Notes: generated from the letters alone by a model not told the origin. A stretch of 64,000 nucleotides of DNA from Amphiscolops sp. MND2022 (GCA_964187785.1 OZ076409.1:50842001-50906000), one strand, 5' to 3'. Positions 39,247 to 64,000 are shown, counted from the stretch's first letter. Made by a program: numbers and translations.

Positions 39247-39770
39247 AACAAGACGGGAACGTCCCAAGTCGGCGCCATATCTTAGGCTCAAAAATATTCA
39301 AGGAACAACTATTGGAAAAATTTGGAAAAAAAAATTTTTCAAAAAAAAAATTTTGATTTTTTTTCGAAAAAAGTATTTTTTAGGTCGCACAATGCCGAAA
39401 AACTCAAAAAGAGGCCATTCAGGCTCATTCAACGTTTTCTACAAACCGAAAACTTCAAAAAAAATCAAGGGGGTACCCTTTGATAAATTTCGAAAGTTTT
39501 CGAAAAAAGTCACATAGTGCCGAAAAAAAACCCAAAGGGGGGACCCTTTGGTCTTACCTGTACTTTTGGAAGCATTAAAAAATTTATGGTTTAGTGCGGG
39601 ATTCGAACCCACGCTCTCCGGCTGGGTCGAAGATAGAAGATGAACAAATATGAAAGATGAACAAAAATTGTAAGAAAAGTGGACCACTCAGAGTGAGATT
39701 GTCAACTGAAAAAAAAAAACTACTCACTGTAAGAGTCGGGCTTTTTTCCTTAAGGGAAAAGGCGCCGACT
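39247..39770. mobile_element. Short non-autonomous insertion, Helentron/HINE-like
   Basis: Interrupts a local tandem repeat at AACAAG. Asymmetric subterminal inverted repeat AGTCGGCGCC (39267) / GGCGCCGACT (39761). Internal B-box-like GGATTCGAACC. Confidence 0.55.
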
Positions 39771-43281: not shown

Positions 43282-43809
43282 TAGCACAGTAATGAACTTG
43301 ACTATTTTACGCGTTTTGTGAGTCATTGGTTTACCTATATTAAAGATGGTGTTATAACCTTTGTTGTGAAGATTGAAATGCATTAATTTCACTTCCGAAG
43401 ATTGATGTTTGAGTTAATGTAAAAAAACATCAATATTGGATGATGATTTGTATTGGTGATCTAAGTGATTCGAATTTATTCACGAGAATTCAAATCATAA
43501 AATTTATGTTTAAAAATATTGCTTACTGTCATGATCAGTAAGAAATAGGTTCAAATCATAAGTTACCGTTGAAAATTTTGCTTACTGTCATGATCAGTAA
43601 GAAATTAGTTCAAATCATAAGTTACCGTTGAAAATTTTGCTTACTGTCATGATCAGTAAGAAATTAGTTCAAATCATAAGTTACCGTTGAAAATTTTTCT
43701 TACTGTCATGATCAGTGAGCAATTAATTCAAACAAAGCAGTAAAACGAACTTAAGAGAATTTTGGTTAATTTTTTCTGAGAAATTATGTTAAGTTGGAGA
43801 AGATTTGAT
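43282..43809 (+). repeat. ~530-bp subterminal direct repeat, copy 2
   Basis: Near-identical to 18415-18942. Confidence 0.92.
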
Positions 43810-44506
43810 GTTTATTGATTTTTTTCACTTGCTAGATGTTTCCGTTATTCCGTTTTGATTCAATGATGACTAGTATTGGATTATGAGTGATTTGAATTCA
43901 ATCACGAATTCAAATCATAAAGTTTCTATTTAAAAGTTTTGCTTACTGGCATGATCAGTGAGCAATTAGTTAAAATCATTAAACTCTAAATTGACTTAAT
44001 TAGTTAGTCACACTAAATGATTAGAATTCTTTTGCATGCATGTGTCATCCATCGTAAACTTTGGTGTATGTATGTATGTGTTAATGTACGTATGCGTTAA
44101 TTGTTTAATCGCGTAATTCAGTCAAAGTTAATGCGTAATTTAGTCAAAGTAATTAAACTCCAAGCAACTATCCAATGTAAATTTATGTGTTTGAAGCAAC
44201 TATTATATTGCCGTAAACTAGTCAAATTTTGACTACTTTACACTTTTCGGTAGTTTAGTAAATGAATACCTCATTAAAAGTGGAATTTAATCAAACTTTG
44301 ACTGAATTACACCTTACTAAATTAGCTTGTAAATTTTGACTGTTTTACACTATTTACTAACTACGCATTTTGACTGGAATTCACCGCGTTCATATTACAC
44401 TGTGCTGCACCACTACACGAGTGGATTACTACAGTCTTTGATCAATTTACAGTAATTGACTATTTTACCCAAAATACTATTTACACCAAGTGATCACTTT
44501 CCACGT

Positions 44507-44528
44507 TTGCGGGACATGTATCGTAATG
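44507..44528 (-). repeat. Element A right terminal inverted repeat
   Basis: TTGCGGGACATGTATCGTAATG, followed by TT and resumed integrase sequence. Confidence 0.92.
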
Positions 44529-44792
44529 TTCACTTCCACGATTATTGCGGAAAGTACACGAATTTTGGGAATTACCACTGGAACGTGCAACAACCAAACA
44601 TACGCAGACGATCGGGAAACTAGAGCGAATACATCCAACACTCAAAACGAATCTCAAAACGGCATGTGGGGAATATCGCCGACAATGGCATAAATACTTG
44701 CCACTTGCAGTTCTGAATCATAATACAAGTTATCATGCAACCATTGGCGGCGAGCCAACACGGATATTTCATAGTCGAGTACCATATATTAT
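44529..44792 (+). pseudogene. pol: Gypsy 2 integrase, resumed 264-bp segment between elements A and B
   Basis: TSTIIAESTRILGIT/LERATTKHTQTIGKLERIHPTLK...WHKYLPLAVLNHNTSYHATIGGEPTRIFHSRVPY, containing the integrase catalytic Glu region. Confidence 0.92.
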
Positions 44793-45914
44793 CAATACAG
44801 TGCCAAAAGTGGGCATTTTGAATTTTTGCAACGGATTTCGCTGGACTGCAGTTTTGGAAAGCGTGCAGCGTAATCCACTAACAAATGCTATTACGTTGCA
44901 GTCGATTCCACTCTTTTGGCGATTTTTCTGCAGCGAATTTCGCTGCAAAGCATTGGATTCCACTATCAAATACCTTAAACATTCGGATCTCGCAGTGGAT
45001 TCCATTAAACACTGCCGTGGATTCCACTGAACGCTGCAGTGGACTCCACCGATGGCCGCAATGGACTCCACCGATAGCCGCAGTGGAATCCACTATCGGC
45101 TGCAGTGGACTCCACTGCAGTGTTTTAGTGGAATTCACTGAAATTTTTCACTGAATTATTTCACTGAATTATTTCAATACCAATCTACAAAACTATCAAC
45201 CATCGAAAGAAAGTGGAGTTCATGTACTTCAGTGCCTGAAAGTTCTTCCTTCACGAGTTCAGTTTTGAGAATGAGAAACTTTTTCAGAATGAGCAAGTGT
45301 CACAAAAAGAAGGATTCAGAATTTCTTCATTTGGCAAATTATTCCCAGTGAGTTTTTACCGCAATCAAGCACCGTTTTACCGCTCTAGTTCCACTGTTAT
45401 TTTTTCATACTTTGATTGAATCATAGTGGGCATCAAAATTTCACACACAGTTCCTGCTAGTTACCTTGTTATACACACATACCTTTAGGTATAACTAGCT
45501 TTCATTTTTCATTTACCTCATGGTGGATACCAAAATTTGGTTCCGAAAATTCACTTCAAGCATACTGCTGACTGCAACGGAGACCTTATCAATTCTACAT
45601 CAAAATTCACACACCGCTCTTTCGTGTATTTTAGGTACAACTAGTTTCCATTTTTCAAGTACCTCAAGGCGGATACCAAAGTTTCTTTCAAATTGAATTA
45701 CAAGCCGAATGATGAATGGAAAACTAAACTCAGGTGAAGAAGACAAGGCAAGGGAAAGTGTTATTCACGGTGTTTTGTTTCGATATTACGAAAAACAAGC
45801 ATTTGTACTTGTAGCAACAGTGTTTAAATACAAGTGAAACTAAAACGAAAGTAGTGAAAAATTGAATCACAACAACGAAAAGTGTTTTGTAAACGGTGTT
45901 TTCTGACAATTCCA

Positions 45915-47644
45915 TCAGTCAAATATCGGTTGAGAATCTTCCTGGAAAAGTTGATTGGCAATGAGGTCATTGTAATCAAAACGGAGCTGCTCAAATGGTA
46001 GATTATCACGTGTAGCTCGGAACACTACAATTTTTTTGCCAATTTGAAACAATTCGATCACTGTGGGCTTCATGTTGGCGCCGTTTGATTTCAATTGCGA
46101 GTGGTTGGCAAGGCGTCCAGGGCAGCGAATATTTGGGTGAAGGGGGCAAATCTCTTTGGAGGCATCAATGATTCTTCTAGAGGCGCCACTTCTAACCTCC
46201 AGAACAAACTCTTGCTTCACACCTTCTTTCTCAAGGACTTGGCTCAATGACATGTTCAAATACACCTCGCCATGGTAATCCATTAAAATGTCGTCCTTTG
46301 AAAATTTCTGTGTGGCAATCACACATCTCCCAAATTTTGACATTTTGGCTAAACAGATTCCAGGCCACAGCTGCGTCTCACATTGTTGCGACAACAAAAT
46401 TTGTTCTTCATATGGCAAATTATGAGCAAGTCCAGCATACCGAGTTCCACTGCTATCAGGTACCTGCGAGGATTTTCTAATTGACTGGTTGTTAGAGAGA
46501 ATCAATAACTGCGCTGTCACTTTTTTCACGTCCTGAATCTTATCCTCCAGCGAAGTCCACAATTGTCGCTGAAAAAATGCCGCCACTCTTGACTCAAGAC
46601 AGTTAATAGCAACTTTCCCAAAAACGTGTTCAAAGTGTAGCAAAGCCCTGGCTGACTGGCGAGTGTACCTTTGCTGGTCTTGGCGGGCGCGAACAGCGTT
46701 TCTCACATCGTCTTTGTCGAAACCTTCAACATTCGAAAAAACCAAATTCATTGCATGTCTCAGCTTGGCGATTTTGAAGCATGGGTCATTGGAAAAGGGC
46801 ATCAGTTCCGCGACTTTACATTTAAAGGTATATTGATCTTTTGTTTCTGCTTTTTTGCTTGAAATGAAAAGATCCACAACAGATTTAACGCGGAAGTCCG
46901 TTTTACCAATTGAATTCACAAAGAATAACTCGGTATTAATTGGACGTTTGTCGGACTTTTCGTATCGAGCAATGGCTAACTTGGTGTGATTGGTAACAAA
47001 AATGGCCGAATTGTGTAAAATACACTTTCAATGCTGCAACAAGACTTCCGGATACTTTGTGAACTGTTCGTTCCGTTGATCCATTTGTGTGTTCCACACA
47101 GATTGAAGGCGTCGCTCAGTGAATCGTCTTCGTGATCCATCACGATTTGCACAACTGAGTGTACCGAGACATACGGATAGACTCCGGATAGTTCGGAACT
47201 TTCAAGCATAGGTGGTACCGCATAATTGAACAGGGTTGTAACTATGCATCGAAAGAGTTCCAACTTAGCATTTTGTACTAGTCCCACATTTTCTTTCGAT
47301 GCCTGCACATGTTTAGCCAACGTTCTTTCGTACATGTTGTTGTCAAAGTAAGTAACTTTCGCACATTTGGATTGGCTGTTACTTAAATTATCCTCACTGC
47401 ACTGGGAGTCAAATGGACGCTTCCCGGGTGGCCCATTGAGCTGGGGTGACACATTGGTCCCGGGCACATTGCTCTGGGGTGGCAAGTTCTGGTGAGGCAG
47501 TGAATTCTGTGACGGGGGGTCCTGTTGTATTGGGTTCTTAGGCAGCAAAGGAATATGAGTCAGATTGTGAGCATTCTGCAGTAAATGTTCTAGAGCTTCT
47601 GTGGGCGTATGTTCAATCAAGTGCTCGATCCCATCGGAGTTCAT
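45915..47644 (-). pseudogene. SET-domain methyltransferase-like gene, element B
   Basis: FGRCVIAT..LMDYHGE, IDAS, GRLANHS, VFRATRD..EQLRFDY in ORF 45915-46919. Upstream ORF 46976-47644 is separated by a stop and frame change (lesion or small intron). Confidence 0.85.
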
Positions 47645-48326
47645 GATTCTAGTTGCACTGAAGAAACCCTCCTCGGGGGCCGATGGAATTGGCGAATAAG
47701 CTGGCGGACAAAAAAAAACATGGATGCATTACTGAGGAAATTCCAGTCGGTAGATCGTCGATGTGGCTGTTGCACAGGTGTAGAAGTCTGGGATGGACAC
47801 AAGCGTGTCGATTCGAGATTTGAAATTTTGTCAGGCATGCTAGAATTATTCACGAACCTAGGAGCACAAATCTTGACAACGGACTTTGCTGAATGAATCA
47901 AAACAATGATGTAAAAAGAAATGACAATTTTGTACTTAATTTTTTTGATAAAACGTCGTTTTACAAATTAGCAGAGACTCGATTTCACCTATTGCACTTC
48001 ACAGTGACTAAATTAATAATTTCAACCAGTAAGTGTTATCAGGTTTATTACGGTGGTTGAGTCCTTTCGGGACTCAAATGCCTGTTCAAATATATTAACA
48101 CTCACGAGATGAGTTTAAAAACTAATTGCTAGTAATAATTTCCTTTTATTGAGCGCTCAAAATGGAATGACACCTTCTTTTTGGATCATCACCGTAAAAT
48201 TAGCTTCTTTTTTGCGCAGTTTATGTGTTGACACCTGGTAATCGCTTTGCACAAATTTGAACAGTTTGTGCTCAAAGGAAGCTCAAGTGTCTTTTTCTGT
48301 TGAAGTCAACTTTAAACTCCACTACA

Positions 48327-49640
48327 ATGCTTCTGCAAACTTTTAAATTATATGAAATTGTCCAAATCCTCGACCCTGGAGCCTATATTTGGGAGTCTGC
48401 GAAGATAATAGCGTTCATAAGTGATTGGTCTCTGAAAATCCAATTGATCGACTGGAACAATCGTCTGCAGAAAATTGAAATTCCCCTAGAACTGCGTCCT
48501 GACCCAAACAGGTGGAACATTAGAAAAGCACGACATTCGCAACCAGTCAAGTCGAAAAAGCGTTCTAAACCCCTGTCATATAACCCAAACCGACTGCAAA
48601 AGAACGAGCCTGTGACATTCTGGCTACCCAATTGTGAGTGTGTGGGGCATTGTTTTATTGATTCCCATGGAAAAATCAAAACAGGAACTATTTCGACGAA
48701 TGACCCATTTACCCATGAGTGTGTCGTGGAGATGGAGGAAATGTTTAGATTTATCCCCTATTGCTATTTGAAGAACTCAGTGGAAGACACCCATGTTGAC
48801 GATGAGAAAGCAGAAGACGACAAGGAAGCTGAAGAGACGAGGCAGGAACATCGGGAAGAACCAAAACAGAAAAGACCTAAAACACAAATACCAGAAACAG
48901 ACTTTTCAGCATTGATACCGCAAACCGATGTTGATGTCAAATTAAGCTATGTACCATGTGTCAATGGAATTTGTCAAAGAGGATCCATTATTACTTTGTC
49001 TGGAATGGAATTCAAAGTGGAGGATTTCTACTACAGTGCACAGAAGTTGAAACAATTTGCAAAAATGGTATCCATGGACGACGAAGACTGCGAACTTAGG
49101 ATGCCAGTAAACAATTGATCGTTAAAGATCTCGGACTATTTAAAAAACGTGGAAATCAATTTTTTTACTCTTGATAATGATGTTGATAGAACGTTTGCAG
49201 TCTTTTCTGCAATTAAGAGATGTGTTGGTTTGTCGTTCAAGAAATCATCAACTGTGACAAACATGATGCCTGCAACAGAGCTCACAAAACGTGTCTGTGG
49301 GTTCAAGTCGGACTCAAGCAGAGAAAACGTGAAATTTTCAATAGAAGTTGAAACGGGAAACTTGGGAAGCTACAACAGCTTAGATTTTATTTTAGGCCAG
49401 AACTGGGACATCATTCTAGATACGCTTGAAGGTGAGCCTGCAACATTGATCAAGACTTTGAAATTCACGAAACATCGCGACTTTATCATGTTCTCACTCA
49501 GGTGCCACATAACTACAACTGAAGGCCACCACAAAAAAATGGAGACCATCGACAAAGCTTTAGGCAAAACATTCAACATGCGCACATTGAATACTTTGTT
49601 GACCAATAGGGGTAGCAATTTTGGTATCCACCGTGAGTAA
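48327..49640 (+). pseudogene. Unknown cargo gene of element B (one in-frame TGA at 49116-49118); possible Tudor/chromo-barrel N-terminus
   Basis: ORFs 48300-49118 and 49149-49640 are in the same frame and homologous to 26583-27851. N-terminus FKLYEIVQILD...WESAKII...LKIQLIDW resembles a Tudor-like barrel. Confidence 0.75.
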
Positions 49641-49967
49641 ATGTGCAAATACATCTTGAAAAAACGTCTGTTTTGTTACCCTAAATAAACTGAATAGTAT
49701 TTTTGTTGGTATTGCACTGATAAAGTTCTTTTTCTTAATTCGATTGTTACAGTAATATTGTCCTTGTTACAATAAATGATGTCAAAAAACTTTTTTCACT
49801 TGCGACTACTTTCTTGAAAAATTCTCGCCAGTAGATAATTTCAAATTATTATTCAGAACGTCCCGATACGTAATAATGCTTTGGTACTTTGGTTTTTGCA
49901 CATTCAAATTTTTGGTACAAACGTTCTACTAAACCTAAATGCATCTAGCCAGAAACAGTAGGTGTAT

Positions 49968-50410
49968 TTGACTAACGTATACCATTACATTGACAGTGGA
50001 TTCCTCAAACAAATGCTTAAACATTTGCGAACCAATTCAAAAGGGGTACATTCAGTGAACTATTGGTTCTAAATAGACTCAAGTTTCTATTGCAGTGGAT
50101 TCCGCTATTCTGGAAAGTATTCTTCATCCTGCGAAAAGCGATATGCGGAATTGACTAACATATACCAATACATTTACTGTGGATTCCACAAACAAATTCT
50201 TAAACATTTGCAAACCAATCCAAAAGGGGTACATTCAGTAACTTATTAGTTCTGAATAGACTCAAGTTTCTATTGTAGTGGATTCCACTATTCTGGAAAA
50301 ATTTCTTCATCCTGCGAAAAGCGATATGCGGAATCGACAGACGTATTTCAATACATTTTAAGTGAGTTCCACAAACAAATGCTCGAACATTTGCAAACCA
50401 ATATAAAAGA
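49968..50410. repeat. ~183-bp tandem repeat with GTGGATTCCAC motif; inverted copies at ~55470-55700 and ~57797-58025
   Basis: TTGACTAACATATACCAATACAT...GTGGATTCCACAAACAAAT...GGGGTACATTCAGT units. Confidence 0.85.
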
Positions 50411-50469
50411 GTAAATTCTAAACTAAATTCTGTTCATTTCTAAACTAAAGAATTTGATAAAGAACAATA

Positions 50470-53453
50470 AACTATAAAAGTTTGCTCCAGGCAGCTTCTT
50501 CGTTCACCATAGTGAATTTTTCTCAAGGCTTCTTTTGCAATGTAGGCTCGTTGCGAAGGCCAGCTTGTAGAGAGCAATTTTCTTGCTCAAAAAGGTTTCG
50601 AATGTGTCGCAGCTTGCAATTAGAGGCGGCAGGGTGTCTAAACAGATCATAATGATGGGGTTTGTGATTTTTTTTCAACAGATTCAATTTCAAGGTTTTC
50701 CGATAGACTAGTGGTCAAATATCTATGTAAAGTTTAACATCAAGATTTCTAATATTATGACATCAACAATTGCGGCTCCTAATCTATATCGAAGACGTCC
50801 TTCTCCCTTTGAAGGATGCTGCGGTCACGTGTGCAGGTCTTCTGCATTGCTTCGGGGATTTCGGGCTGGTGCAATGGTCCAATTCGCACTTCTTTGACAG
50901 GCCCCGTGAAGGCGTACACTGGCCCTTTTGGGTCGCGATAGGGCTTCTCCGGACCCCTCAATCCCAGTTGAGTTAAATTGAAAACTGGATACACCTGGTA
51001 ACAAAAGGCATTGACAATGATGAATAGAGCGAATTCAATGAGAAATGTGGAAAGTTACAATTACATTTGCAGAAAATACGTTTAAATTGTTAGGCAGTTC
51101 GAAACGAGAACCAATAAAATCCGTAGTTCACAACCCAGTCCGTGGAAGAGATTAGTTTTTTTTCTACATTATCAGCTACCATTCATAATCAACAAACATT
51201 GATTACCATTTTGATGGCGTCGAGCTCACTGCTGATCTGCTCTTTCAGAAGAGTCAGTTGTGGGCTGGAGAAGAGGGGGCTCCATGATCCTCTCAGGGAA
51301 TTGAGTTTCCGCTGGAGTTGTCGTATTTTGAACTGTAGCACAGCATAAACACGAACAACTCCGGGAAAAACCTCTTCGTCGTCTATTTCCGGCTGACTGG
51401 CGTTGAGGTGACTGTCCACAATCAGAGGGAAATGTGTGACAGCGAGGAAGTTGGAGGCAAAAGCAATGGCATCTCCCTTTGTTGCCACTATATGTGGTCA
51501 GCGTGCAGGCAAAACGAGGATGTCGCCTGCCTCCACCACAAGTTTGTGGACCCCACCTGTCAGGGCCTTCAGGTTCCCGAAGGAAGTTGGTCTAAATAAA
51601 AACAAATTAGTATATATTTGAACGAAACAACTGGTTCAATGATTTTGAATCATGTGCATGATTGATAATGTGCTCTTCGCAAAAGGATGACTTTGAGATG
51701 AGTATGTTTTCAGTACATGATGTGAGTACATTTACTTTTTTGTGGGGATATTGCTCCACTCCTCAAAGAGCTGCAAATTTGAGCTTGTCGGCTCCACCAG
51801 CCAGAAGATCTTCTGCCCTCGGGCGACAGTATAAAAGGCAGTCGTGCTGGAAAAGTCGACATGCCACGGCGTGAGACACTGGTCATTTGAGACCAGCAAA
51901 TAATTGGAAGTAGCCTGAGTGAAATGCCCTGCTACATCCACACACTTATCTGCAAGTTGGTCAGCCGCACAGAATCGGACAAAGTCTGGTACTTGGAAAA
52001 ACTAAACGAAAACGACAAGACATCAGCAACCGGTTTCAGAACAAAGACTCTTTACAGTGGTCGCCATTTTCAACATCCATTTAGTTGCTAAAAATTTGAA
52101 CAATAGAAGGGTGCATCATGTATTTCACTGACTTTTGGCACTGTACAGACACCAAATTCAAAGAGTAATTTTTTCCAATATGAGCCCTTCCAAGATATGA
52201 TAAGAAAACTTACATTCCGTTCGAGTGCAATGTCAATGACATTGACAGGAAATGTCCCAGTGAGTGCTGCTGAGGGCCCCGCTCGCTGCTCGTCCAGGTA
52301 CCCGCTCACTGTTAAAGACCTGACCTGAAATTCAAAAAAATATATATTTTAAGCATACTCCTCTGATATTACTTTACCAATGTTTAGATAACTTACAGTG
52401 AAAACCACTGCCAACGATGACTTAGTGGATACTAAATCTCAATATGTTTTGATTCAACGTATACAATAATTTTTATCACTAATGGTAAAACGCTATACTT
52501 GAATGAAGTTTGTGAAATTCGAAAAAAAAAGAATGGCGGGATATGTTCACCTGTTGGTCATGTGGCAGCCGTGATGAATTTGCAGCAGGCTTCGCTGCAG
52601 GATTAGCCAAGTGCTGCAGCAAGAACTCCACTTGGTGGACGAAGTCCTCAGCGGGCAAAACTGGGAGCTTCAAACCTCGCGAGTTCATAGCCCCCTTCTT
52701 CCACAATATCGGCTGGCCACGAGAGAGTGCTTTCAGGACCATGCCGTTTTCGTCTTCTTGCTGATTTTCCCACCTGCAGCAGTTCCAGGGCTCCTCTGAA
52801 AGCGGCATGTCCTCTAAGTACTTTACGAAGAGACTTGATCCTTCGTACGCCCGTCGACTAGGCTCGCTCGTCATTGCCATGTCGTTTTCTTTGTGGAGGG
52901 GAAATCGTTCCAGGTGTCTCTGTAGGGAGTCACTCCGGGGAAATTCCTCACCACGGGATGTGCAAGGATATTTTTTGCTGGGGTTGGCAGTTCCTATAAA
53001 GTTTTATTGAAAAAAATTTAAACTAAAAACTTTGATCGCACATTTTGACTAAACTTATGTTCGTATTATGTTCGTATTTATTTGTACCTAAATCCTAAAC
53101 TGTCACACTAAGAATTAATATAAGTTTGAGGCTTTCTTGTTTGTATTCACGGCTTTGTGATATAAGTTTTTCACATTTTTTTTAAGAAAAATGTGGTGGG
53201 GGTACGAAAAGAGCCGCAAATCGTTGACATAGTTGATCTACTTACTATACTTTCTTTCATTTTGGGGTATGTCTGTCGTGCAGTACCTCGCTTTCTCGAT
53301 GTGGCGCTTGAGCGTTAGAAGGGTGGCGAAGACCCTCTTGCAACGGGGACATGCTTTGTTTTGCGGCTGCTTTGTACCGCAGGTTTTTTGGTGCCTCTCA
53401 AAATTCGTGCGGCGGTTCGACTTGTAAGAACAGTTGGGGCAACTGTATTCAGT
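50470..53453 (-). pseudogene. Spliced C2H2 zinc-finger + JmjC demethylase-like gene, element B
   Basis: Exons 53453-53246 (two fingers), 52993-52551 (degenerate third finger plus JmjC N-flank), 52324-52214, ~51980-51736 (WHVDFSSTTAFYTVARGQKIFWLVEPT), 51591 onward (GDILVLPAR*PHIVATKG..ASNF). TGA at a normally Trp position. 5' and 3' ends uncertain. Confidence 0.85.
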
Positions 53454-53725
53454 CTGTAGAAGCAAAAACAACATTATAGTTTATCCTCGAAGCGTCTTAC
53501 ATGTAAACGCCAAAATTTCAAACCGCTAAAAGATTTTACAACCTCCCATTTCAAATAAAAACCTGTTTTTCCAATCAGAAAAAGGAGGAAACGAACAAGC
53601 AAAAAAATGGAACATGCCAAAATTGCTAAACCACAAATGAATTTAGAACGCCACCATTTTAAAATGGAGATAAATATCTCGGTTGTTTAACAATATGGTT
53701 AAATAAAAACAAACAAATAACAAAG

Positions 53726-53795
53726 CGCTATGGCCGAGTGGTAACCAACTAGACTATGAAGCCATAGATCGTGGGTTCGAATCTCTATCGTGTCG
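53726..53795 (+). repeat. tRNA-derived (SINE-like) remnant; duplicated at 56291-56360
   Basis: A box TGGCCGAGTGG and B box GGTTCGAATC; stems pair poorly. Confidence 0.55.
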
Positions 53796-53969
53796 ATCTT
53801 ATGTTATCACAGAAAAACTGAGTATACCTAATTTTTCAATTAATATGTAAAACTTTGATCTTGCTATCGCGAATTTTAGTTTGATTGTCTATGTTAACAA
53901 CAACTTTTAATCTTTTCTTCATATCGTATCATTACTTTCTGATTGGAACAATAACTAATTGATTACAAT

Positions 53970-54510
53970 AATTTACTCACGGTAAGTACCAAAACCAAAG
54001 CGCTGTTTCTTAAAATTGACTTTTTTTACTCACGGTGGATACTTGAATTTTTTCCAACTGAAACTAACATTTTTGCTGACAGTAGGTACAATTTTTTTTC
54101 TAACTCAGGTTTTTCCACGGCTCACGGTGGATACAAAAAATTTCTATACAAATGAAGGACAATACTTTACTCACCGTGTGTACCAAAAACGAGTACAATA
54201 ATTTACTCACGGTAAGTACCAAAACCAAAGCGGTGTTTCTTAAACTGAGTTTATTTTACTGACGGTGGATACTAGAACTTTTCCAACCGAAACTAACAAT
54301 TTTGCTGACAGTGTGTAAAAAATTTTTTCTAACTAAGGATTTTTCCACTACTCACGGTGGATACAAAAAATTTCTATACAAATGCAGGATAATACTTTAC
54401 TCACGGTGTGTACCAAAAACGAGTAGAAGAACTTACTCACGGTAAGTACCAAAACCAAAGCGGTGTGTATTAAAACTGAGTTTTTTTTTCTACTCACAGT
54501 GGATACTCAA
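53970..54510. repeat. ~230-bp tandem units rich in TTACTCACGGT
   Basis: TTACTCACGGTAAGTACCAAAACCAAAGCG at ~53973, 54203, 54433. The motif also occurs inverted (ACCGTGAGT) at 63383-63470. Confidence 0.85.
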
Positions 54511-57500
54511 ATTTTTCCAACTGAAAATGACATTTTTATTTCGTATCCCAAATTGTAGATTTTCATGAAAGAAACTAACCATTGTGAAATGAGGAAACAG
54601 GCAACGTTTAGGGAATCTAGATTTTAAATACTAATTAGACAAAGGTAAGAGAAAGGCTTAAAAAATGCTTCTTGAATTAAACAAAACTAGCAAGCGGTTG
54701 AATTGAAAGGTCGAACGACAAAGAATCAATTTCCTGACTAGAAGAACATTTCCTACATCCACTTCGGCAGCCAATTAAAATCGATTTAGCATTCTCGGTT
54801 CCGTAAACGTATGTAACAGTTTTGTTTTATACCGCTACATTTGCACACAAGTTTACTAAATTGACACTTCCGTCAGATTCATTCTAATTGTGCTGAGTGA
54901 ACGAATAGTGTTGAACAAATGAATGGTAAACAAAATATTGAAGCAAAATGAAAAACGGAAAGAGAGCAAACTCCTTCTAGAATACAAAATGACTCAAGTT
55001 TTAACATACCAAAATTTTTGGAAATGCACTTTAGATAATTGAATGTCATCAAGAAAAATAAAAGGAAATAAAAGTTCAATAAGTGTCAATTGAATGAACT
55101 TTCTTGGGATAAATTCAATTTTCAATTCTCAGGGACTAAAAGTGGAGTTTAAAAATCATCTGTCATTTCTTTGGGCTCTGAAACTTCTTATAAAAGAAAA
55201 TCAACTGCAACGTCCTCTAAAATCATGCCAAACTTTTGATTCCGAAAAAAACGGTCTTCGTTTTATGTTCATCGTATAAGCCCCCTCCCCAAACTTTTGA
55301 CCACCAAAACTTCAAAAAAGGGGAGGGGGCTCCTTTGCTGGAATATACGGTATGTTGATTTTGATCATTAACTTTGTTCAAGATTTCTTTCGTCACGACT
55401 ATGAGGGAGTTAATTGTCAATTTTTCTTTAATGTAGTCTGATTTGATTTTTTTGCTGGATATACCAATAATTCACTGAATGTACCCCTTCTGAATTGGTT
55501 TGCAATTGTTTAAGCATTTGTTTGTGGAATCCACTGTCAATGTATTGGTATATGTTAGTCAATTCCGCATATCGCTTTTCGCAGGATGAAGAATACTTTT
55601 CAGAATAGTGGAATCCACTGCAAGAGAAACGTAAGTCTATTTAGAACTAATGCTTTACTGAATGTACCCTTTTGAATTGGTTTACAAATGTTTAAGCTTT
55701 CTTGTCTAAGTTTCCGAGAAAAAAATGTTCAAAAACTAAATTAGTACCACAAGCAAAGATTAAAACATATGTCTTCGAAATCATTTATTGTAACAAGCAT
55801 TTGCAGAAATCAGAGTAAAAGTCGATCATCTGCTGGAGTTTTGTTATGTTTCACTAGGCCGTTTCGGTATCTTTTCAAGGCCACAATGGCTGACGTATTC
55901 GCTATCGATTTGTTATCATCTATTTGATCCATCAAGAGTGGTCGCATGTCATTAATTTTCATCGGGTTGATCAAGAGTCCAGGCCTTATGATATACTTTT
56001 CAGGGTCTAGAATGACGTTACTTTTCATCATTTCGAGTCCGTATTCAACAGTGATGAACATGAAACCCACCGACGCAAATCTTTTGCAGGCCAAAGCTGC
56101 AGGAGACAACTTCTTTTTTGTTGAACACTTTTCATCTTCTCTACTTTCGGCGTCTGTTGACAACTCGCTTTGTTGACAACAGCCAAAATTGCTAAACCAC
56201 AAATGAATTTAGAACGCCACCATTTTAAAATGGAGATAAATATCTCGGTTGTTTAACAATATGGTTAAATAAAAACAAACAAATAACAAAGCGCTATGGC
56301 CGAGTGGTAACCAACTAGACTATGAAGCCATAGATCGTGGGTTCGAATCTCTATCGTGTCGATCTTATGTTATCTCAGAAAAACTGAGTATACCTATTTT
56401 TTCAATTAATATGTAAAACTTTGATCTTGCTATCGCGAAATTTAGTTTGATTGTCTATGTTAACAACAACTTTTAATCTTTTCTTCATACCGTATCATTA
56501 CTTTCTGATTGGAACAATAACTAATTGATTACAATAATTTACTCACGGTAAGTACCAAAACCAAAGCGGTGTTTCTTAAAATTGACTTTTTTTACTCACG
56601 GTGGATACTTGAATTTTTTCCAACTGAAACTAACATTTTTGCTGACAGTAGGTACAATTTTTTTCTAACTAAGGATTTTTCCACTACTCACGGTGGATAC
56701 AAAAAATTTCTATACAAATGCAGGATAATACTTTACTCACGGTGTGTACCAAAAACGAGTAGAAGAACTTACTCACGGTAAGTACCAAAACCAAAGCGGT
56801 GTGTATTAAAACTGAGTTTTTTTTCTACTCACAGTGGATACTCAAATTTTTCCAACTGAAAATGACATTTTTTTTCGTATCCCAAATTGTAGATTTTCAT
56901 GAAAGAAACTAACCATTGTGAAATGAGGAAACAGGCAACGTTTAGGGAATCTAGATTTTAAATACTAATTAGACAAAGGTAAGAGAAAGGCTTAAAAAAT
57001 GCTTCTTGAATTAAACAAAACTAGCAAGCGGTTGAATTGAAAGGTCGAACGACAAAGAATCAATTTCCTGACTAGAAGAACATTTCCTACATCCACTTCG
57101 GCAGCCAATTAAAATCGATTTAGCATTCTCGGTTCCGTAAACGTATGTAACAGTTAGGTTTTATACCGCTACATTTGCACACAAGTTTACTAAATTGACA
57201 CTTTCGTCAGATTCATTCTAATTGTGCTGAGTGAACGAATAGTGTTGAACAAATGAATGGTAAACAAAATATTGAAGCAAAATGAAAAACGGAAAGAGAG
57301 CAAACTCCTTCTAGAATACAAAATGACTCAAGTTTTAACATACCAAAATTTTTGGAAATGCACTTTAGATAATTGAATGTCATCAAGAAAAATAAAAGGA
57401 AATAAAAGTTCAATAAGTGTCAATTGAATGAACTTTCTTGGGATAAATTCAATTTTCAATTCTCAGGGACTAAAAGTGGAGTCATCATCTGTCATTTCTT

Positions 57501-58137
57501 TGGGCTCTGAAACTTCTTATAAAAGAAAATCAACTGCAACGTCCTCTAAAATCATGCCAAACTTTTGATTCCGAAAAAAACGGTCTTCGTTTTATGTTCA
57601 TCGTATAAGCCCCCTCCCCAAACTTTTGACCACCAAAACTTCAAAAAAGGGGAGGGGGCTCCTTTGCTGGAATATACGGTATGTTGATTTTGATCATTAA
57701 CTTTGTTCAAGATTTCTTTCGTCACGACTATGAGGGAGTTAATTGTCAATTTTTTTTAATGTAGTCTGATTTGATTTTTTTGCTGGATATACCAATAATT
57801 CACTGAATGTACCCCTTCTGAATTGGTTTGCAATTGTTTAAGCATTTGTTTGTGGAATCCACTGTCAATGTATTGGTATATGTTAGTCAATTCCGCATAT
57901 CGCTTTTCGCAGGATGAAGAATACTTTTCAGAATAGTGGAATCCACTGCAAGAGAAACGTAAGTCTATTTAGAACTAATGCTTTACTGAATGTACCCTTT
58001 TGAATTGGTTTAGAAATGTTTAAGCTTTCTTGTCTAAGTTTCCGAGAAAAAAATGTTCAAAAACTAAATTAGTACCACAAGCAAAGATTAAAACATATGT
58101 CTTCGAAATCATTTATTGTAACAAGCATTTGCAGAAA

Positions 58138-61100
58138 TCAGAGTAAAAGTCGATCATCTGCTGGAGTTTTGTTATGTTTCACTAGGCCGTTTCGGTATCT
58201 TTTCAAGGCCACAATGGCTGACGTATTCGCTATCGATTTGTTATCATCTATTTGATCCATCAAGAGTGGTCGCATGTCATTAATTTTCATCGGGTTGATC
58301 AAGAGTCCAGGCCTTATGATATACTTTTCAGGGTCTAGAATGACGTTACTTTTCATCATTTCGAGTCCGTATTCAACAGTGATGAACATGAAACCCACCG
58401 ACGCAAATCTTTTGCAGGCCAAAGCTGCAGGAGACAACTTCTTTTTTGTTGAACACTTTTCATCTTCTCTACTTTCGGCGTCTGTTGACAACTCGCTTGC
58501 GGTACAATGTCTATGGAGCTTCAGTTTTGTTCTCATGGCTTCCAATTGATGTTTATCGCCAGTCGCGTTTATTAGGTCCCTTTCGTCTTTGACAATAACG
58601 TAAATATTCAAGATATTTGAATGGGATTTCATTATGTTCTCCGCATTTTCTTTCTCATAAACGACACCTTCCATTTCGAAAATTCTATCTTTGAGGAAAT
58701 CCTGTGTGAGCCCACGCTTGAACCTACCTACAATTGTAAATCTCAATCCTCGTAGAAGGTCACAAAATGTTCTCTTTTCGCCAACGGCAAGGCAGGGTAG
58801 CGTCAAGGGAGTTCTACAAATGTCTAGATAAGTTTTGGCACCCTCTAAAGTCTCTTCAGTCGTGAGTGTTTTCCTTACATGTTCAATCACATTGGATATT
58901 TTTTTTCGGAACTTGTTGAAGAAATATCCAGGAACCGGCAAAACGAAAATCCAGTATCCAGAAATATTGGGTCTTGATGGTAAATGGAGCCACCGCCTCT
59001 CATGGTTCGGGATTGAAAATTTCTGTTCGCATTGAGGTTCGATTTTTCCAAGCCTTCGCAGAGGTGATTCCATGGATTCTCGATGTATCCGCTCTCCACT
59101 AGTTGGGCTATCAATGGAAGCTTGAGCTTGTATGGTGACAGCCCCTTTCGCCCAAAGAGGAGCGAATTGATTTGAAAGTATGTTTCAGCCCATCGTTTGT
59201 AAGTGTCGACATCAAATGTTCCCTGAGTTCTCAACAGAATAGCACACTGGTTTAAACTTTGTCGTAGAAGCTCACAAGCGTCATAAATTGTTATATATCT
59301 TTCTTCGTTTCTTGGATTAATGGGGTCCCGTTTGTCAAATAAATGTGGATGTAAAGACTTAAGTACTTTTGCAGCCCCCAAGTTGTATCCATCCTCACTT
59401 CCAAGTAGTATCTCGGTCGTCCAAACTCCGTCATAAAGGTTCATGATTGTCCCAAATTGAGCACTTCTAAGTTCTTCTGTTTCAGCTATAACTGTAAGTG
59501 CATTCGACCCCGCTAATGACAAAGGTCCTACTGTTCCTGGGGTTTTACCTACGTTCTTGTGGGTGATATTGAACTGAAAAGACGGTCTTTTAGCTTCTCG
59601 GCTGGTCAAATTTTTCTCAAAGCGCTGTATGCTCAAAGCTTCCCAGGGATGTTTGTTGTTAATTACCTTCTGAGCCACTCTTCTAATATCATTCTCGGTG
59701 CAACGCGTTATCATGTGTGTAGCGTCTGGGCAGATTGTTCTGACATCGATTATGCTTGCTAATGCTTCTCTGGGAACATGTTGTCTGAAAGGGATCTTCA
59801 AAGATGTTCGTCTTCCATCGACATCTGAGCAGCGGGTGGGGAGGAAATTTTCATCGCATACATATATCGGAAGTTGTGACGGATGAGAACTTGAACGTTC
59901 AGTTGAAAATCCAAGGACCAAACGCGTCAAGGATGTAATTTCAACGCCCAACGCTTGTAGTACTTTTGTCTGGCGGTGTAGCCATCCACATTCTTGCTTA
60001 CCCAGGATAGACGGGCCAAAGTTTTGTTCCATTGCATATCGGCCATCTTTGCCACGATATGATGCAAAACAGAAGGCAGCTTTCGATGATTGGCTGCTAA
60101 CTGTGGTGTTCAAAATTCTGAATGCTAGACGCGTTACCTCAACCCCCCCCATTTCGCAACCGTCACCCCAAATATCAATTTTGAGGCCTTGAAGATTGGT
60201 TTTTTGCAGTTAAACTAATGACGCAAACGTCATTGCTTTCAGTAAACTGACTCGAAATCCAGAATAGGTTCGCTCAGGCTCGCAAATTGTAACAAACAAT
60301 TTCATTATGAGGCTAGTAGCTCTTTTGATGTGACGAATTGACGGTACTAGGCTGCCACTTCCTAAACCAACCGGAACTAGCCTTTGTCGAATTGCATTGA
60401 GGATATCATCCATGTTGCAGGTTTCATTTTGTTTGAAAGTTCGTACCTAAACCACTCGGAGGAACCCCTGTCGTCCAAAAAACCCGTGAACTAGTTTCGA
60501 ATGTGATTACCGCTTGCGCGTTACCGCATAAACGACACCTTCCATTTCGGAAATTCTATCTTTGAGGAAATCCTGTGTGAGCCCACGCTTGAACCTACCT
60601 ACAATTTTAAATCTCAATCCTCGTAGAAGGTCGCAAAGTTTTCTCTTTTCGCCAACGGCAAGGCAGGATAGCGCCAAGGGATTTCTACAAATGTCTAGAT
60701 AAGTTTTGGCACCCTCTAAAGTCTCTTCAGTCGTGAGTGTTTTCCTTACATGTTCAATCACATTGGATATTTTTTTTCGGAACTTGTTGAAGAAATATCC
60801 AGGAACCGGCAAAACGAAAATCCAGTATCCAGAAATATTGGGTCTTGATGGTAAATGGAGCCACCGCCTCTCATGGTTCGGGATTGAAAATTTCTGTTCG
60901 CATTGAGGTTCGATTTTTCCAAGCCTTCGCAGAGGTGATTCCATGGATTCTCGATGTATCCGCTCTCCACTAGTTGGGCTATCAATGGAAGCTTGAGCTT
61001 GTATGGTGACAGCCCCTTTCGCCCAAAGAGGAGCGAATTGATTTGAAAGTATGTTTCAGCCCATCGTTTGTAAGTGTCGACATCAAATGTTCCCTGAGTT

Positions 61101-63210
61101 CTCAACAGAATAGCACACTGGTTTAAACTTTGTCGTAGAAGCTCACAAGCGTCATAAATTGTTATATATCTTTCTTCGTTTCTTGGATTAATGGGGTCCC
61201 GTTTGTCAAATAAATGTGGATGTAAAGACTTAAGTACTTTTGCAGCCCCCAAGTTGTATCCATCCTCACTTCCAAGTAGTATCTCGGTCGTCCAAACTCC
61301 GTCATAAAGGTTCATGATTGTCCCAAATTGAGCACTTCTAAGTTCTTCTGTTTCAGCTATAACTGTAAGTGCATTCGACCCCGCTAATGACAAAGGTCCA
61401 ACTGTTCCTGGGGTTTTACCTACGTTCTTGTGGGTGATATTGAACTGAAAAAACGGTCTTTTAGCTTCTCGGCTGGTCAAATTTTTCTCAAAGCGCTGTA
61501 TGCTCAAAACTTCCCAGGGATGTTTGTTGTTAATTACCTTCTGAGCCACTCTTCTAATATCATTCTCAGTGCAACGCGTTATCATGTGTGTAGCGTCTGG
61601 GCAGATTGTTCTGACATCGATTATGCTTGCTAATGCTTCTCTGGGAACATGTTGTCTGAAAGGGATCTTCAAAGATGTTCGTCTTCCATTGACATCTGAG
61701 CAGCGGGTGGGGAGGAAATTTTCATCGCATACATACATCGGAAGTTGTGACGGATGAGAACTTGAACGTTCAGTTGAAAATCCAAGGACCAAACGCGTGA
61801 AGAATGTAATTTCAACGCCCAGCGCTTGTAGTTCTTTTGTCTGGCGGTGTAGCCATCCACATTCTTGCTTACCCAGGATAGACGGGCCAAAGTTTTGTTC
61901 CATTGCATATCGGCCATCTTTGCCACGATATGATGCAAAACAGAAGGCAGCTTTCGATGATTGGCTGCTAACTGTGGTGTTCAAAATTCTGAATACTAGA
62001 CGCGTTACCTCAACCCCCCTATTTTGCAACCGTCACCCCAAATATCAATTTTAAGGCCTTCAAGAGTGGTTTTTTGCAGTAAAACTAATGACGCAAACGT
62101 CATTGCTTTCAGTAAACTGACTCGAAATCCAGAATAGGTTCGCTCAGGCTCGCAAATTGTAACAAACAATTTCATTATGAGGCTAGTAGCTCTTTTGATG
62201 TGACGAATTGACGGTACTAGGCTGCCACCTCCTAAACCAACCGGAACTAGCCTTTGTCGAATTGCATTGAGGATATCATCCATTTTGCAGGTTTCATTTT
62301 GATTGAAAGTTCGTACCTAAACCACTCGGAGGAACCCCTGTCGTCCAAAAAACCCGTGAACAAGTTTCGAATGTGATTACCGCTTGCGCTTCTTTTTCGC
62401 CACATGCTACGTTTTTGATGCTGATCTTTGAGAATTGTGGCTAATCCGTGAATAGGTATACCATGCATTCTAGCAAAACTCAGGACTTTGGTCCAAAAAG
62501 TTTTCCTATTAGTTCTGTGCCACCTTTTGAGTTGTCATTGCATAATATTCATATCTGATCGTTACTGGTCTTCTGCATTATTAACTTCTGGTGTCTTCTG
62601 TAGCACTTCCTCTTCTTGGAATGTTACTTCAAGGGGTGTTTCTTCGTTTCTTTAACCATCTCATGTTGAGAAGAAAACTTATCATTTGTAAAAGTACCGA
62701 CATCGGGAAAAAATCTGGTGTTAAAGTATTTTGCAACGAATTTTCTTCTCTTCTCGTTCCAAGGTAAGTCTTTATAGCCCCGCAGAATTAAAAGTTTCAT
62801 TATTTTCGATGCAACAAAAACAGATCCCTGGGGCTGTCCTTTAATTGGTATTTTTTGAAAAAGATCGTCTGTCTTCAGAGTGGTCCCTACGACCATTTCA
62901 GCAACGATTGAAGTAAGTTTCCGTTGACGATTTTGTAACGTGTTTCCTGATATAAAGTCTAGTATTTTGGAATCTATGAATTCTTTCCCATCATCAAGTG
63001 ATAGATTGAACTTTTCGAATTCTGACAATTCTGAACTTTTAGACAATGAAAATGAGCGTGTCAATGGTGTATCAAATCGTCGATAATGATGAAGCCGAAA
63101 AACTATCAAAATCCATTTCTTTGTGTTTCCCTCCTTTTGCGTCTTCTGATACCCCTCAATTTTAGCCTCAACTTCAAATAAATTTAATCTTGCAACATTT
63201 TTCTCACAGT
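58138..63210 (-). pseudogene. RAG1/Transib-like transposase-BRCT of element B with an internal 1871-bp tandem duplication; disrupted
   Basis: IDIWGDG, PDATHM, LSPYKLK, LCEGLEKSN, RTMRGG, BRCT-like LRGLRFTIVGRF...LDPEKY. Several stops and frameshifts; second catalytic Asp segment missing; start uncertain. Confidence 0.82.
58656..62389. repeat. 1871-bp-period tandem duplication within transposase B (58656-60519 / 60527-62389)
   Basis: ORFs 58887-60152 and 60758-62029 are near-identical and offset by 1871 bp. Confidence 0.95.
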
Positions 63211-64000
63211 ATTACCGCACGCTGTTTAAATAATTCTTCAACACCTGTTTGAAACTATTTGATTGCACGCGTTGAACTAAAACTACAAGGTCATACGTGC
63301 GCTCACTAGTAGGTGATAAAATTAGGTGTGATTGTTCCCAAAAAATCATGAGGAAGGATTTTCCAGTGATTTTTTTGTCTCCACCGTGAGTCGGTTGTCA
63401 ACCGTGAGTCGGTTGACATTGCATAGAGTATTTGCCAGCAAATGATTCTGTTGTTTTTTGACCGTGAGTTGACCGTGAACACAGTTCAAGCACTACAACT
63501 TCTTGGCAAAAAATGGTGAAGAAAATTTTTTCAATTGAAGAAACTACACTTTATCATGACAAAAAAAAAGACGTAAACCAAATTTTTAACAAACTTTTTG
63601 TACTAAGGAAAGAATTTTATAATAATAGAGAAGAGAGGAACGCATCAGGTGTGAGTTGTAACCATTGAAGTTGTAAACATTGCAACTATAAAGAGTGATT
63701 TTGAAGTTCCTACCATTTGCCAATTGCTTCACAGAATTTGTATGAATTTGACATGAAACAAAGAAAAATGAAAAAGACTGGAACTTTTTCCTTTTCCCTA
63801 CACTTTTCAAGATGTTGTTTTTGCAATTACAGTAGACTTCGGATAATCGAATATCAGCTAAATATCGAAATCAAAATTTCGGGTAAACGAATAAAAATCT
63901 TCGGCAGTATAGATCATACTAGCATGTTTTCGTTTTATCGAATTTTTTGCTGAATCGAAAATTTTTCGCCGTTCCTGCATAATTTGAACCGAACCTAAGT

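What the first reader, a model, noticed from the sequence alone, without database searches (positions are those of the whole stretch)
44950..63480. Element B uses different private motifs (GTGGA[T/A/C]TCCAC and TTACTCACGGT) in a similar architecture
Seen: palindromic GTGGAWTCCAC variants cluster at 44950-45135 just inside the left end and recur in internal tandem repeats (49996-50370, 55524, 55608, 57852, 57936). TTACTCACGGT is dense at 53970-54510 and 56540-56840 and inverted at 63383-63470. I did not see the element A motif here, and the B zinc fingers differ from those of A in the recognition helices. Inference: motif and binding protein have co-diverged between subfamilies, as expected for a self-recognition system.
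Basis: partly seen in the sequence, partly recalled or inferred. Interest (0 to 1): 0.72.

Follow-up and report, generated by a model that had tools for sequence, protein, structure and literature searches.

The report
Private motifs in chromatin-enzyme-carrying transposon
A large jumping gene in an animal genome carries its own histone-modifying enzymes and is studded with short DNA words not found in its sister family next door, which may let each family recognise and keep open its own copies, although no binding has been shown.

Summary
The motifs are real, above chance and exclusive. Element A and the rest of the window hold none, and A's motifs are absent from B. The two B motifs share a GTGGATWC core.

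B is a decayed copy of a multi-copy DNA transposon of about 14 kb. It carries a RAG1/Transib-fold transposase with a weak BRCT match, a KMT5A-like SET gene, an unknown gene, and a three-finger zinc-finger/KDM2-7-like JmjC fusion. The finger/JmjC gene travels with its own transposase subfamily, and the left motif cluster recurs in another B copy.

The claimed co-divergence of motif and fingers is not shown. The fingers differ no more than the rest of the protein, the recognition code does not match fingers to motifs, and only two subfamilies could be read as DNA.

It most likely works like plant VANDAL/VANC or Spm/TnpA self-recognition. I found no description of such a system, or of this carrier, in animals. 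Rivals are transposase binding, 3'-end signals and neutral repeats.

The parts
44796..44810 (+). Left terminus of element B (TACAGTGCCAAAAGT): 6/7 match to the RSS heptamer, or CAGTG after a TA; no nonamer at 12 or 23 spacing
   Evidence: In another B copy the read-through protein P0331 matches this end up to here and then switches to a different flank; nonamer check
44868..45138 (.). M1 left cluster: 10 copies of the palindrome (A)GTGGANTCCAC(T), partly as a 22-bp tandem array; strongly self-folding
   Evidence: fold z=-8.98 for 44797-45200; present in another copy at 93% amino-acid identity when read in the reverse frame
45484..45771 (+). Three degenerate M2 sites 3' of the SET gene (45516, 45662, 45763), two of them in a 146-bp duplication
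45915..47728 (-). SET-domain gene, KMT5A/SET8-like; in two frames here
   Evidence: Pfam SET E=3.8e-7; PDB hits are a SET-domain protein (4ldg) and SETD8/KMT5A, E 2.4e-6 to 5e-3; weak match to A's SET ORF, E=1e-4
48330..49640 (+). Gene U, unknown function, one in-frame stop at 49116-49118; weakly and collinearly similar to A's 26583-27857 gene; its stop codon lies inside an exact M2 15-mer (49624-49638, minus strand)
   Evidence: E=0.001; E=0.009; no significant Pfam or PDB hit, and no usable Atlas hit
49942..50418 (+). 183-bp tandem unit (2.4 copies), two M1 sites per unit, downstream of the poly(A) signals of U
51189..53453 (-). Zinc-finger/JmjC gene: 3 fingers (C2HC/C2H2-like) fused to a KDM2/KDM7-like JmjC domain; five exons at GT-AG sites give 476 codons with one premature stop; finger 3 lacks its second Cys; first and last exons not fixed
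   Evidence: (KDM2A E=1.4e-11, PHF8 5.6e-11); 154 of 499 columns identical to A's intact 536-aa gene, with several matching intron positions; 27 members at 90% identity
52131..52145 (-). Exact inverted copy of the 15-bp left terminus inside a JmjC intron
   Evidence: 1.6e-4 expected by chance
53961..54537 (+). M2 array: 230-bp unit (2.5 copies), four ACTCACGGT-NNN-TAC sites per unit, between the transposase 3' end and the finger gene 5' end
53611..58498 (.). Tandem duplication 1 (53611-56170 / 56178-58498), 99.7% identical outside the array; it duplicates the M2 array, the inverted 183-bp unit and the transposase tail
   Evidence: junction filler resembles adjacent sequence
57791..58028 (-). 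183-bp unit (1.3 copies, M1 at 57852 and 57936) just 3' of the transposase poly(A) signal; duplicate at 55463-55700
58138..63030 (-). RAG1/Transib-fold DDE transposase with a weak C-terminal BRCT match; this copy is frameshifted, lacks the second catalytic Asp block and carries tandem duplication 2 (58656-60519 / 60527-62389, 98.4%)
   Evidence: model of relative P0066 (92% identical to this core) has pLDDT 88, Foldseek RAG1 E=1.1e-7, VIA Z 18.3 RAG1, 17.9 BbRAGL, 12.9 HzTransib; BRCT_2 below cut-off in relatives
63377..63478 (-). Right M2 cluster (three exact ACTCACGGT and one partial) upstream of the transposase; the right terminus itself was not found

Best explanation
The motifs are family-specific cis-sites of a large RAG1-fold DNA transposon. 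They were multiplied by short tandem duplications and by copying of units between the non-coding parts of the element (shown). They are kept because a protein of the element binds clustered sites, most likely the zinc-finger/JmjC fusion (inferred). Binding would bring a KDM2/7-type histone demethylase, helped by the SET8-like methyltransferase, to the element's own ends and gene boundaries and keep them active against host silencing, without freeing other families (inferred by analogy to VANC/TnpA and REF6). A and B use different words but the same 5+1+5 (quasi-)palindromic geometry. Shown: motifs, exclusivity, gene set, mobility as one cassette. Not shown: binding, the binder, catalytic activity, co-divergence.
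For: Reciprocal exclusivity and top de novo rank. Non-coding placement. The exact M2 15-mer in three contexts with near-background flanks. Fingers in frame with a JmjC that keeps HxD...H and the 2-oxoglutarate Lys in both elements, A's gene being intact. Finger/JmjC ORFs share contig lengths only with their own transposase subfamily: A 3 of 4, B 3 of 13 (2.5 expected if all are linked, as only 15 of 77 members were listed), 0 cross-matches among 103 and 107 other lengths. Motif arrays recur in other copies: P0331/P0338 read through B's left cluster, and P0322 reads through A's intron array. CpG observed/expected is 0.87-0.89, so histone marks rather than DNA methylation are the likelier target (inference). 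The same pattern is proven for VANC21 (PMC5735166, passages) and Arabidopsis TnpA (bioRxiv 10.64898/2026.08.24.746577, abstract and one section).
Against: The recognition code gives no fit or discrimination (24 finger-set by motif pairs, smallest p 0.19-0.20). Helix divergence is not above background (p=0.23). M1 is a perfect palindrome, which suits a dimer better than a tandem three-finger array (established knowledge). Within recent repeat units the motif is not clearly better conserved than its flanks (142/155 vs 613/699, p=0.21; p=0.017 only with one poorly aligned pair included). Some flanks are shared between clusters (2 of 24 M1 comparisons at p=0.0075), so copying alone explains part of the spread. 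There are no exact sites in the SET-U promoter region. A's motif 1 also lies outside A's gene cluster (13 exact copies). This B copy is dead.
Confidence: 0.45

Rival explanations
1. The sites are bound by the element's own transposase (a dimer), as subterminal recognition sites for end synapsis and for autoregulation; the finger/JmjC protein is incidental.
For: Clusters sit within 70-350 bp of the left end and upstream of the transposase. The sites are palindromic. There is no RSS-type nonamer at the left end, so specificity must come from elsewhere. The transposase has a conserved N-terminal region of no known family. A deletion derivative breaks at an M1 site. Transposases can act as sequence-specific activators (bioRxiv 10.64898/2026.08.24.746577, abstract).
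Against: Most sites are 5-13 kb from either end, between genes, and A's are in introns. The two ends carry different words (M1 left, M2 right).
Confidence: 0.2
2. Neutral minisatellites: short units amplified by slippage and spread inside each element by gene conversion or gap-repair copying, so that each family drifts to its own words with no binder.
For: The element is prone to tandem duplication (P0172). Whole 183-bp units and a 24-bp poly(A) block were copied between gene ends. No excess conservation of the motif inside recent units. Palindromes and hairpins promote such events (fold z=-9).
Against: The same 15-bp core persists where the flanks have decayed to background. Two families that are 34% identical in the transposase both show short-word arrays of similar geometry at matching non-coding positions.
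Confidence: 0.18
3. The arrays are directional 3'-end signals (terminators, roadblocks, insulators or 3'-UTR elements) that separate tightly packed genes.
For: A's motif 2 arrays follow three stop codons in the gene's sense (3 of 3). B's M2 sites follow the SET, U and transposase stops in one gene-relative orientation (3 of 3). 183-bp units follow the poly(A) signals of U and the transposase.
Against: Small numbers (about 1 in 16 by chance). M1 is symmetric. The right M2 cluster is upstream of a gene, and A's motif 1 is intronic. A host termination factor would not need family-private words. No Rfam match.
Confidence: 0.12
4. The words are sites for host proteins: a germline activator that the element exploits, or a host repressor that targets it.
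For: Transposons often carry host factor sites (established knowledge). A's TGAC-N3-GTCA-like core resembles dimeric transcription-factor sites (recalled, untested).
Against: The element amplified the words itself, which a repressor site would not favour. The words are absent from the other 44 kb of the window.
Confidence: 0.05

Closest known systems
VANDAL transposons and VANC anti-silencing proteins (Arabidopsis; PMC5735166, passages read)
   Same: Short family-specific motif accumulated by tandem repeat formation in introns, intergenic and terminal non-coding DNA; different motifs in related families; an accessory gene as candidate binder
   Different: The carrier is a RAG1-fold, not a Mutator-like, transposase; the accessory protein is a zinc-finger/JmjC enzyme, not VANC; animal-type host with little CpG depletion; motifs partly palindromic; binding and effect not shown here
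En/Spm (CACTA) TnpA with clustered terminal motifs (bioRxiv 10.64898/2026.08.24.746577, abstract and one section read)
   Same: Motif clusters near the ends, family-specific words, co-diversification of specificity with lineage; transposases of the same broad fold group
   Different: No TnpA homologue; most sites are internal; the C(2)C and H(3-4)H motifs of that clade are missing
Transib and RAGL transposons, RAG1 (PMC1131882 and PMC10629977, passages read)
   Same: Best structural matches (Z 18.3, 17.9, 12.9); conserved DDE triad; left end reads (T)ACAGTG
   Different: About 14 kb with four genes rather than 3-4 kb; second D to E spacing about 295-298; no CxxC or Hx3-4H; no nonamer; BRCT-like tail; no recognisable RAG2L
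TET/JBP-carrying fungal DNA transposons, including ESTA (PMC12730594, passages and two parts of the text read)
   Same: DNA transposons carrying a chromatin or DNA-modifying dioxygenase; ESTA is RAG1-like with TA duplications and CA..TG ends, compatible with TA|CAGTG here
   Different: The cargo here is histone-directed (JmjC, SET) with its own fingers; animal host; zinc motifs absent
REF6/JMJ12 (Arabidopsis; PMC6497721, abstract read)
   Same: A JmjC demethylase targeted to a short DNA word by its own zinc fingers
   Different: REF6 is a host gene acting on H3K27me3; here the JmjC is KDM2/KDM7-like, transposon-borne, and the fingers precede it

Membership tests
Transib | RAG1-core-like transposase fold | tested here: met
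   Foldseek RAG1 E=1.1e-7 and HzTransib 6.8e-7; VIA Z 18.3 (rmsd 3.8, 383 aligned) and 12.9 (rmsd 7.7, 351 aligned); the model is of relative P0066
Transib | DDE catalytic triad | tested here: met
   D 74 of 76, D 96 of 97, E 98 of 101 rows with a residue in alignment A3; the window's own B copy lacks the second D block
Transib | Second D to E distance 206-214 aa (RAG1 253) | tested here: not met
   D287 to E582/E585 in P0066, 295-298 aa; reference values from PMC1131882
Transib | TIR: CAC-starting heptamer, spacer, A-rich nonamer | tested here: not met
   The left end reads TACAGTG with no nonamer at 12 or 23 spacing; the right end was not found, so only one end was tested
Transib | 5-bp target site duplication | not testable with these tools
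   Right end and DNA of other copies unavailable
Transib | 3-4 kb element with one gene | tested here: not met
   14.5 kb after collapsing duplications, four genes
RAGL transposons | RAG2-like gene facing RAG1L | tested here: inconclusive
   No kelch or PHD hit in the ORFs scanned; gene U is unassigned and was not folded
[quoted passage not shown] | [quoted passage not shown] | tested here: not met
   CxxC in 1 of 90 rows, Hx3-4H in 0 of 96 rows; feature taken from PMC12730594
CMCT clade / ESTA | CA..TG termini, TA duplication | tested here: inconclusive
   The left end fits TA|CAGTG; the other end is unknown
VANDAL/VANC anti-silencing system | Family-private short motif at high density in non-coding tandem repeats | tested here: met
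   for two families only
VANDAL/VANC anti-silencing system | VANC protein and Mutator-like transposase | tested here: not met
   No such Pfam hit; the fold is RAG1-like
VANDAL/VANC anti-silencing system | The accessory protein binds the motif and relieves silencing | not testable with these tools
   Only a code-based prediction was possible, and it was uninformative
En/Spm TnpA system | TnpA homologue | tested here: not met
   No Pfam hit among the B and A ORFs scanned
En/Spm TnpA system | Motif clusters confined to the termini | tested here: not met
   Clusters also at 49.6-50.4 kb and 53.9-58.0 kb
REF6-type finger-targeted demethylase | JmjC and zinc fingers in one protein, with the metal ligands kept | tested here: met
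   In-frame splicing in A (intact) and B (one stop); HxD...H present; no transcript evidence
REF6-type finger-targeted demethylase | The fingers bind a defined DNA word | not testable with these tools
   inconclusive

The most novel reading that the evidence does not exclude
An undescribed lineage of large RAG1-fold transposons in animals runs a family-specific anti-silencing system. Each subfamily's zinc fingers read its own amplified DNA word and deliver a captured KDM2/7-like demethylase, with a SET8-like writer, to its own copies, and word and fingers change together between subfamilies. It would be an animal counterpart of VANC in which the enzyme itself is transposon-encoded.
Probability: 0.33. 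Interest if true: 0.88.

Novelty: new variant of a known kind. Interest (0 to 1): 0.66.

Why it matters
[quoted passage not shown] It treats this scarcity as a puzzle. If the reading holds, this is an animal case with an obvious enzymatic mechanism.

The family also offers a natural test panel. At least eight transposase clusters have 17 to 216 members, and the main groups are 32-67% identical. Whether binding words and finger helices co-evolve can therefore be tested directly from one assembly.

Even if the motifs are neutral, a RAG1-fold transposase without the usual zinc motifs, carrying histone writer and eraser genes, widens the known range of the RAG/Transib group.

Tried and rejected
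Searches for DNA of other copies
- No whole genome is held.
- Transposase scans of metagenome, viral and prokaryote collections confirmed no relative; the deep alignment was too diverged to scan with.
- A 17-mer M2 scan of metagenomes gave 19 loci with no BLAST similarity to the window and no arrays, rejected as chance.
- Motif scans of viral and prokaryote collections gave 0, 2 single matches (not examined further) and 0.
- No sequencing run was listed, so no reads were laid.

Protein and structure work
- A search for longer relatives of the finger-3/JmjC exon found none among 245 candidates, so finger helices of other subfamilies and of intact B copies were not obtained.
- 7 of 10 exact look-ups were not in the collection.
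- The single-sequence fold of P0015 failed (pLDDT 33). Sequence searches of the PDB missed RAG1.
- Atlas hits for gene U had a low recognition value and were rejected. Atlas hits for the transposase were RAG1 leads under 0.9.
- A Tudor-like look of U's N-terminus and a Bro-N-like look of the transposase N-terminus are recalled resemblances that Pfam and PDB did not support.
- The maximum-likelihood tree run was killed and replaced by FastTree on 41 of 42 chosen rows.

Motif tests
- The zinc-finger code test was negative; the code table was recalled, not fetched.
- Rfam gave nothing. The tRNA-SeC call inside U was rejected as lying in coding sequence.
- Reading 44796-52145 as a separate TIR-bounded element was rejected, because JmjC exons continue on both sides of 52131-52145.
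- The GTGAGT/GTAAGT likeness of M2 to splice donors was considered, but the sites are not at the mapped intron borders.

Earlier findings and literature
- Five look-ups of earlier scan findings returned nothing.
- Searches for a description of this element found none in the listings. The library lacks Repbase and most subscription papers, and no supplements were read, so absence from print is not established.
- PMC9911081 (passages) was read as background on a recalled resemblance to acoel repeats; the host species was not determined.


Full report
1. Observation. GTGGANTCCAC (M1) is exact 10 times and TTACTCACGGT (M2) 10 times in the window. With one mismatch M1 occurs 19 times against 1.40 expected, 18 of them in B. 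At 63383-63471 only the 9-mer ACTCACGGT is exact. Self-alignment shows two tandem duplications in B, 53611-56170/56178-58498 and 58656-60519/60527-62389, 99.7% and 98.4% identical. Their short junction fillers resemble neighbouring sequence, which argues for real events rather than assembly error (inference). The sites at 55524/55608 and 57852/57936, and the two dense M2 clusters, are therefore the same sites twice. In the collapsed 14.5-kb element there remain 8 exact M1 and 10 M2 9-mers, against at most 1 in 200 shuffles. There are none in element A (15.3 kb) or the remaining 28.6 kb, and A's words are absent from B. Unbiased 8-mer counting puts these words on top.

2. The motifs. M2 is longer than reported: ACTCACGGT-GGA/AAG/GTG-TAC, usually T-rich before and A-rich after. 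It is an imperfect palindrome around a central G, and its commonest right arm, GTGGATAC, is nearly the M1 half-site GTGGATTC. The shared core GTGGATWC has 17 hits in collapsed B (both strands counted; shuffle mean 0.64), 0 in A and 2 elsewhere. A's two words likewise share TG[GTA]CATG[AG]TCA (24 in collapsed A, 0 in B). All can be written as 5+1+5 (quasi-)palindromes (read from the sequence). 15 of 16 M1 sites and 14 of 15 M2 sites are non-coding, in an element 47% non-coding (the sites are not independent). The exact 15-mer occurs at 49624 (minus strand), 54028 and 54350 with flanks agreeing at 10-12 of 30 positions, against a background of 8.1. This is the best sign of constraint. Against it, within recent repeat units the motif is not significantly better kept than the rest (142/155 vs 613/699, p=0.21). 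Two left-end M1 sites share flanks with the 183-bp unit (15 of 30, p=0.0075 each, 2 of 24 comparisons), so units were copied about the element.

3. The carrier. B encodes, from the left: a SET gene (Pfam E=3.8e-7; PDB hits SETD8/KMT5A), an unknown gene U, a finger/JmjC gene and a transposase. Five exons of the finger gene joined at GT-AG sites give 476 codons with one premature stop. A's gene gives an intact 536-aa protein, 154 of 499 columns identical, with matching introns between fingers 2 and 3 and in the JmjC part. The JmjC exon matches KDM2A and PHF8 (E about 1e-11), and HxD...H is kept. The transposase has no significant Pfam or PDB sequence match. A model of a 92%-identical relative built on 150 homologues (pLDDT 88, pTM 0.84) matches RAG1 (Foldseek E=1.1e-7; VIA Z 18.3), BbRAGL (17.9), HzTransib (12.9) and P transposase (12.6). 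The DDE triad is near-invariant in the family, but the C(2)C and H(3-4)H motifs are absent (1 of 90, 0 of 96). BRCT matches at the C-terminus are below cut-off but recur. A has the same four genes in a different order, and the two transposases are about 30-34% identical. B's copy is dead: frameshifts, loss of the second Asp block, and stops in U and JmjC. The host is a eukaryote with short spliceosomal introns and retroelement-like debris, probably an invertebrate animal (inference); the species was not determined.

4. It is a mobile, multi-copy cassette. Clusters at 90% identity hold 216, 128, 98, 93, 77, 72, 28, 21 and 17 transposase ORFs, and 608 representatives score at E of 0.001 or better. 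B's finger/JmjC exon has 27 members and A's finger exon 5. Using contig length as a label, 3 of 4 other A-finger contigs carry an A-type transposase and 3 of 13 B-finger contigs a B-type one (2.5 expected if all do, since 15 of 77 were listed). There is no cross-match among 103 and 107 other lengths. Two stored ORFs from one other contig are deletion fusions of B's finger/JmjC exon to the reverse strand of the left cluster, 93% and 86% identical to window 45020-44799 and 45020-44910. The longer one leaves homology at 44796-44798 and enters a different flank. This places the left terminus at (T)ACAGTGCCAAAAGT and shows the M1 cluster in another copy. An A copy likewise reads into its intron array. 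The right terminus was not found.

5. Architecture. In A, motif 2 arrays follow the stops of SET, U and the transposase, always in the gene's sense, and motif 1 arrays fill introns. In B, M2 sites follow the same three genes in one gene-relative orientation, and 183-bp M1 units follow the poly(A) signals of U and the transposase, which share a 24-bp block. The matching B introns have no arrays. A's motif 1 also occurs 13 times exactly outside A's gene cluster, whereas B's words stay inside B.

6. Do the fingers read the motifs? Helices (positions -1 to 6) are RRTNFER, TLLTLKR and RSDSLQR in B, and VKSNVTR, QAKFMKK and YSYDLQI in A. Two of 12 contact residues are identical, which is not below the protein's 31% background (p=0.23). 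With a simple recalled code, B fingers 3+2 fit GTGGAT at 5 of 6 positions and A fingers 2+1 fit TCAGAC at 4 of 4. Chance reaches these scores in about 19-33% of controls, and B fingers 2+1 fit A's motif equally well. The linkers are non-canonical and M1 is symmetric. The direction is compatible but this is no evidence. No helices or DNA from further subfamilies could be obtained.

7. Mechanism. Most likely (0.45) the clusters are landing pads for an element-encoded protein, probably the finger/JmjC fusion, which keeps the element's own chromatin open. Weak CpG depletion (observed/expected 0.87-0.89) points to histone marks as the contested layer. Rivals: transposase binding (0.20), neutral amplification (0.18), directional 3'-end signals (0.12), host factors (0.05).

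8. Known systems. It works, if at all, like VANDAL/VANC, where a short motif accumulates in non-coding tandem repeats and differs between families (PMC5735166, passages). It also resembles Spm TnpA with family-specific motif clusters (bioRxiv 10.64898/2026.08.24.746577, abstract and one section), and the protein recalls REF6 (PMC6497721, abstract). It is a member of none of these. It fails several defining features of Transib (PMC1131882, passages) and of the CMCT clade (PMC12730594, passages and two parts of the text), and RAG2L was not recognised (PMC10629977, passages). Seven literature searches listed no such element, within a library that lacks Repbase; no supplements were read. A 2019 review knew anti-silencing factors only from plants (PMC6719617, passages).

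9. Verdict. Observation confirmed with corrected counts; interpretation partly supported. New variant of a known kind, on a carrier that looks like an undescribed lineage. Interest 0.66; the boldest reading has probability about 0.33 and would merit 0.88.

Noticed in passing
window 21953-25108 (-): Element A's finger/JmjC gene splices to an intact 536-aa frame over six exons, so it is a ready natural candidate for binding and activity assays.
   Followed up: partly
window 52053-52145: Inside a JmjC intron, an exact inverted copy of B's 15-bp left terminus faces a TACAGTG 93 bp away, like a tiny TA-flanked element; the second end may be chance.
   Followed up: partly
window 18415-18947 and 43282-43814: A 533-bp direct repeat (96%) 24.9 kb apart brackets element A and carries 59-bp arrays of A's motif 1; A may be larger than its gene cluster, or a non-autonomous family shares the motif.
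   Followed up: no
window 56171-56177 and 60520-60526: Both duplication junctions hold short fillers that resemble adjacent sequence, a pattern recalled from polymerase-theta end joining; A has a 924-bp duplication too (25599/26523), and homologue P0172 an internal one.
   Followed up: partly
window 49763-49786 and 58102-58125: Gene U and the transposase share a 24-bp block around AATAAA (92%), each followed by the 183-bp unit: a copied 3' module.
   Followed up: partly
protein P0331/P0338 contig; window 45017-45027: The deletion joining the finger exon to the left end in another copy breaks at or within an M1 palindrome.
   Followed up: no
window 45129-45170, 50054, 52122, 55470: A third word, TTCACTGAA or close variants, accompanies M1 (5 in collapsed B, shuffle mean 0.38, max 2).
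   Followed up: partly
window 18150-18400 and 44020-44487: Two short regions share words such as TTGACTG..TTTACAC and GCGTAATT.AGTCAAAG without aligning over length: possibly another motif-rich repeat family.
   Followed up: no
window 646-6464, 13112-18130, 44487-44795: Decayed retroelement-like gag/pol/integrase fragments (recalled resemblance; the last had no Pfam hit); B's left end abuts the last.
   Followed up: no
window 8339-9732: A diverged array of about 180-bp units unrelated to A or B.
   Followed up: no
window 53730-53790 (copy 56296-56356), 39600-39623, 28430-28500: tRNA-like fragments (GGTTCGAATC type) upstream of the finger genes and elsewhere, not called by ARAGORN; possibly SINE pieces.
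   Followed up: no
window 21057-21130: Tandem TTTGATACACTG words just beyond A's JmjC gene, possibly a further A end motif.
   Followed up: no
proteins P0191, P0195, P0196, P0199, P0200, P0206: Distant full-length relatives (25-29% identity to the B type) keep the DDE core and often the BRCT-like tail, so the lineage is deep and diverse.
   Followed up: partly
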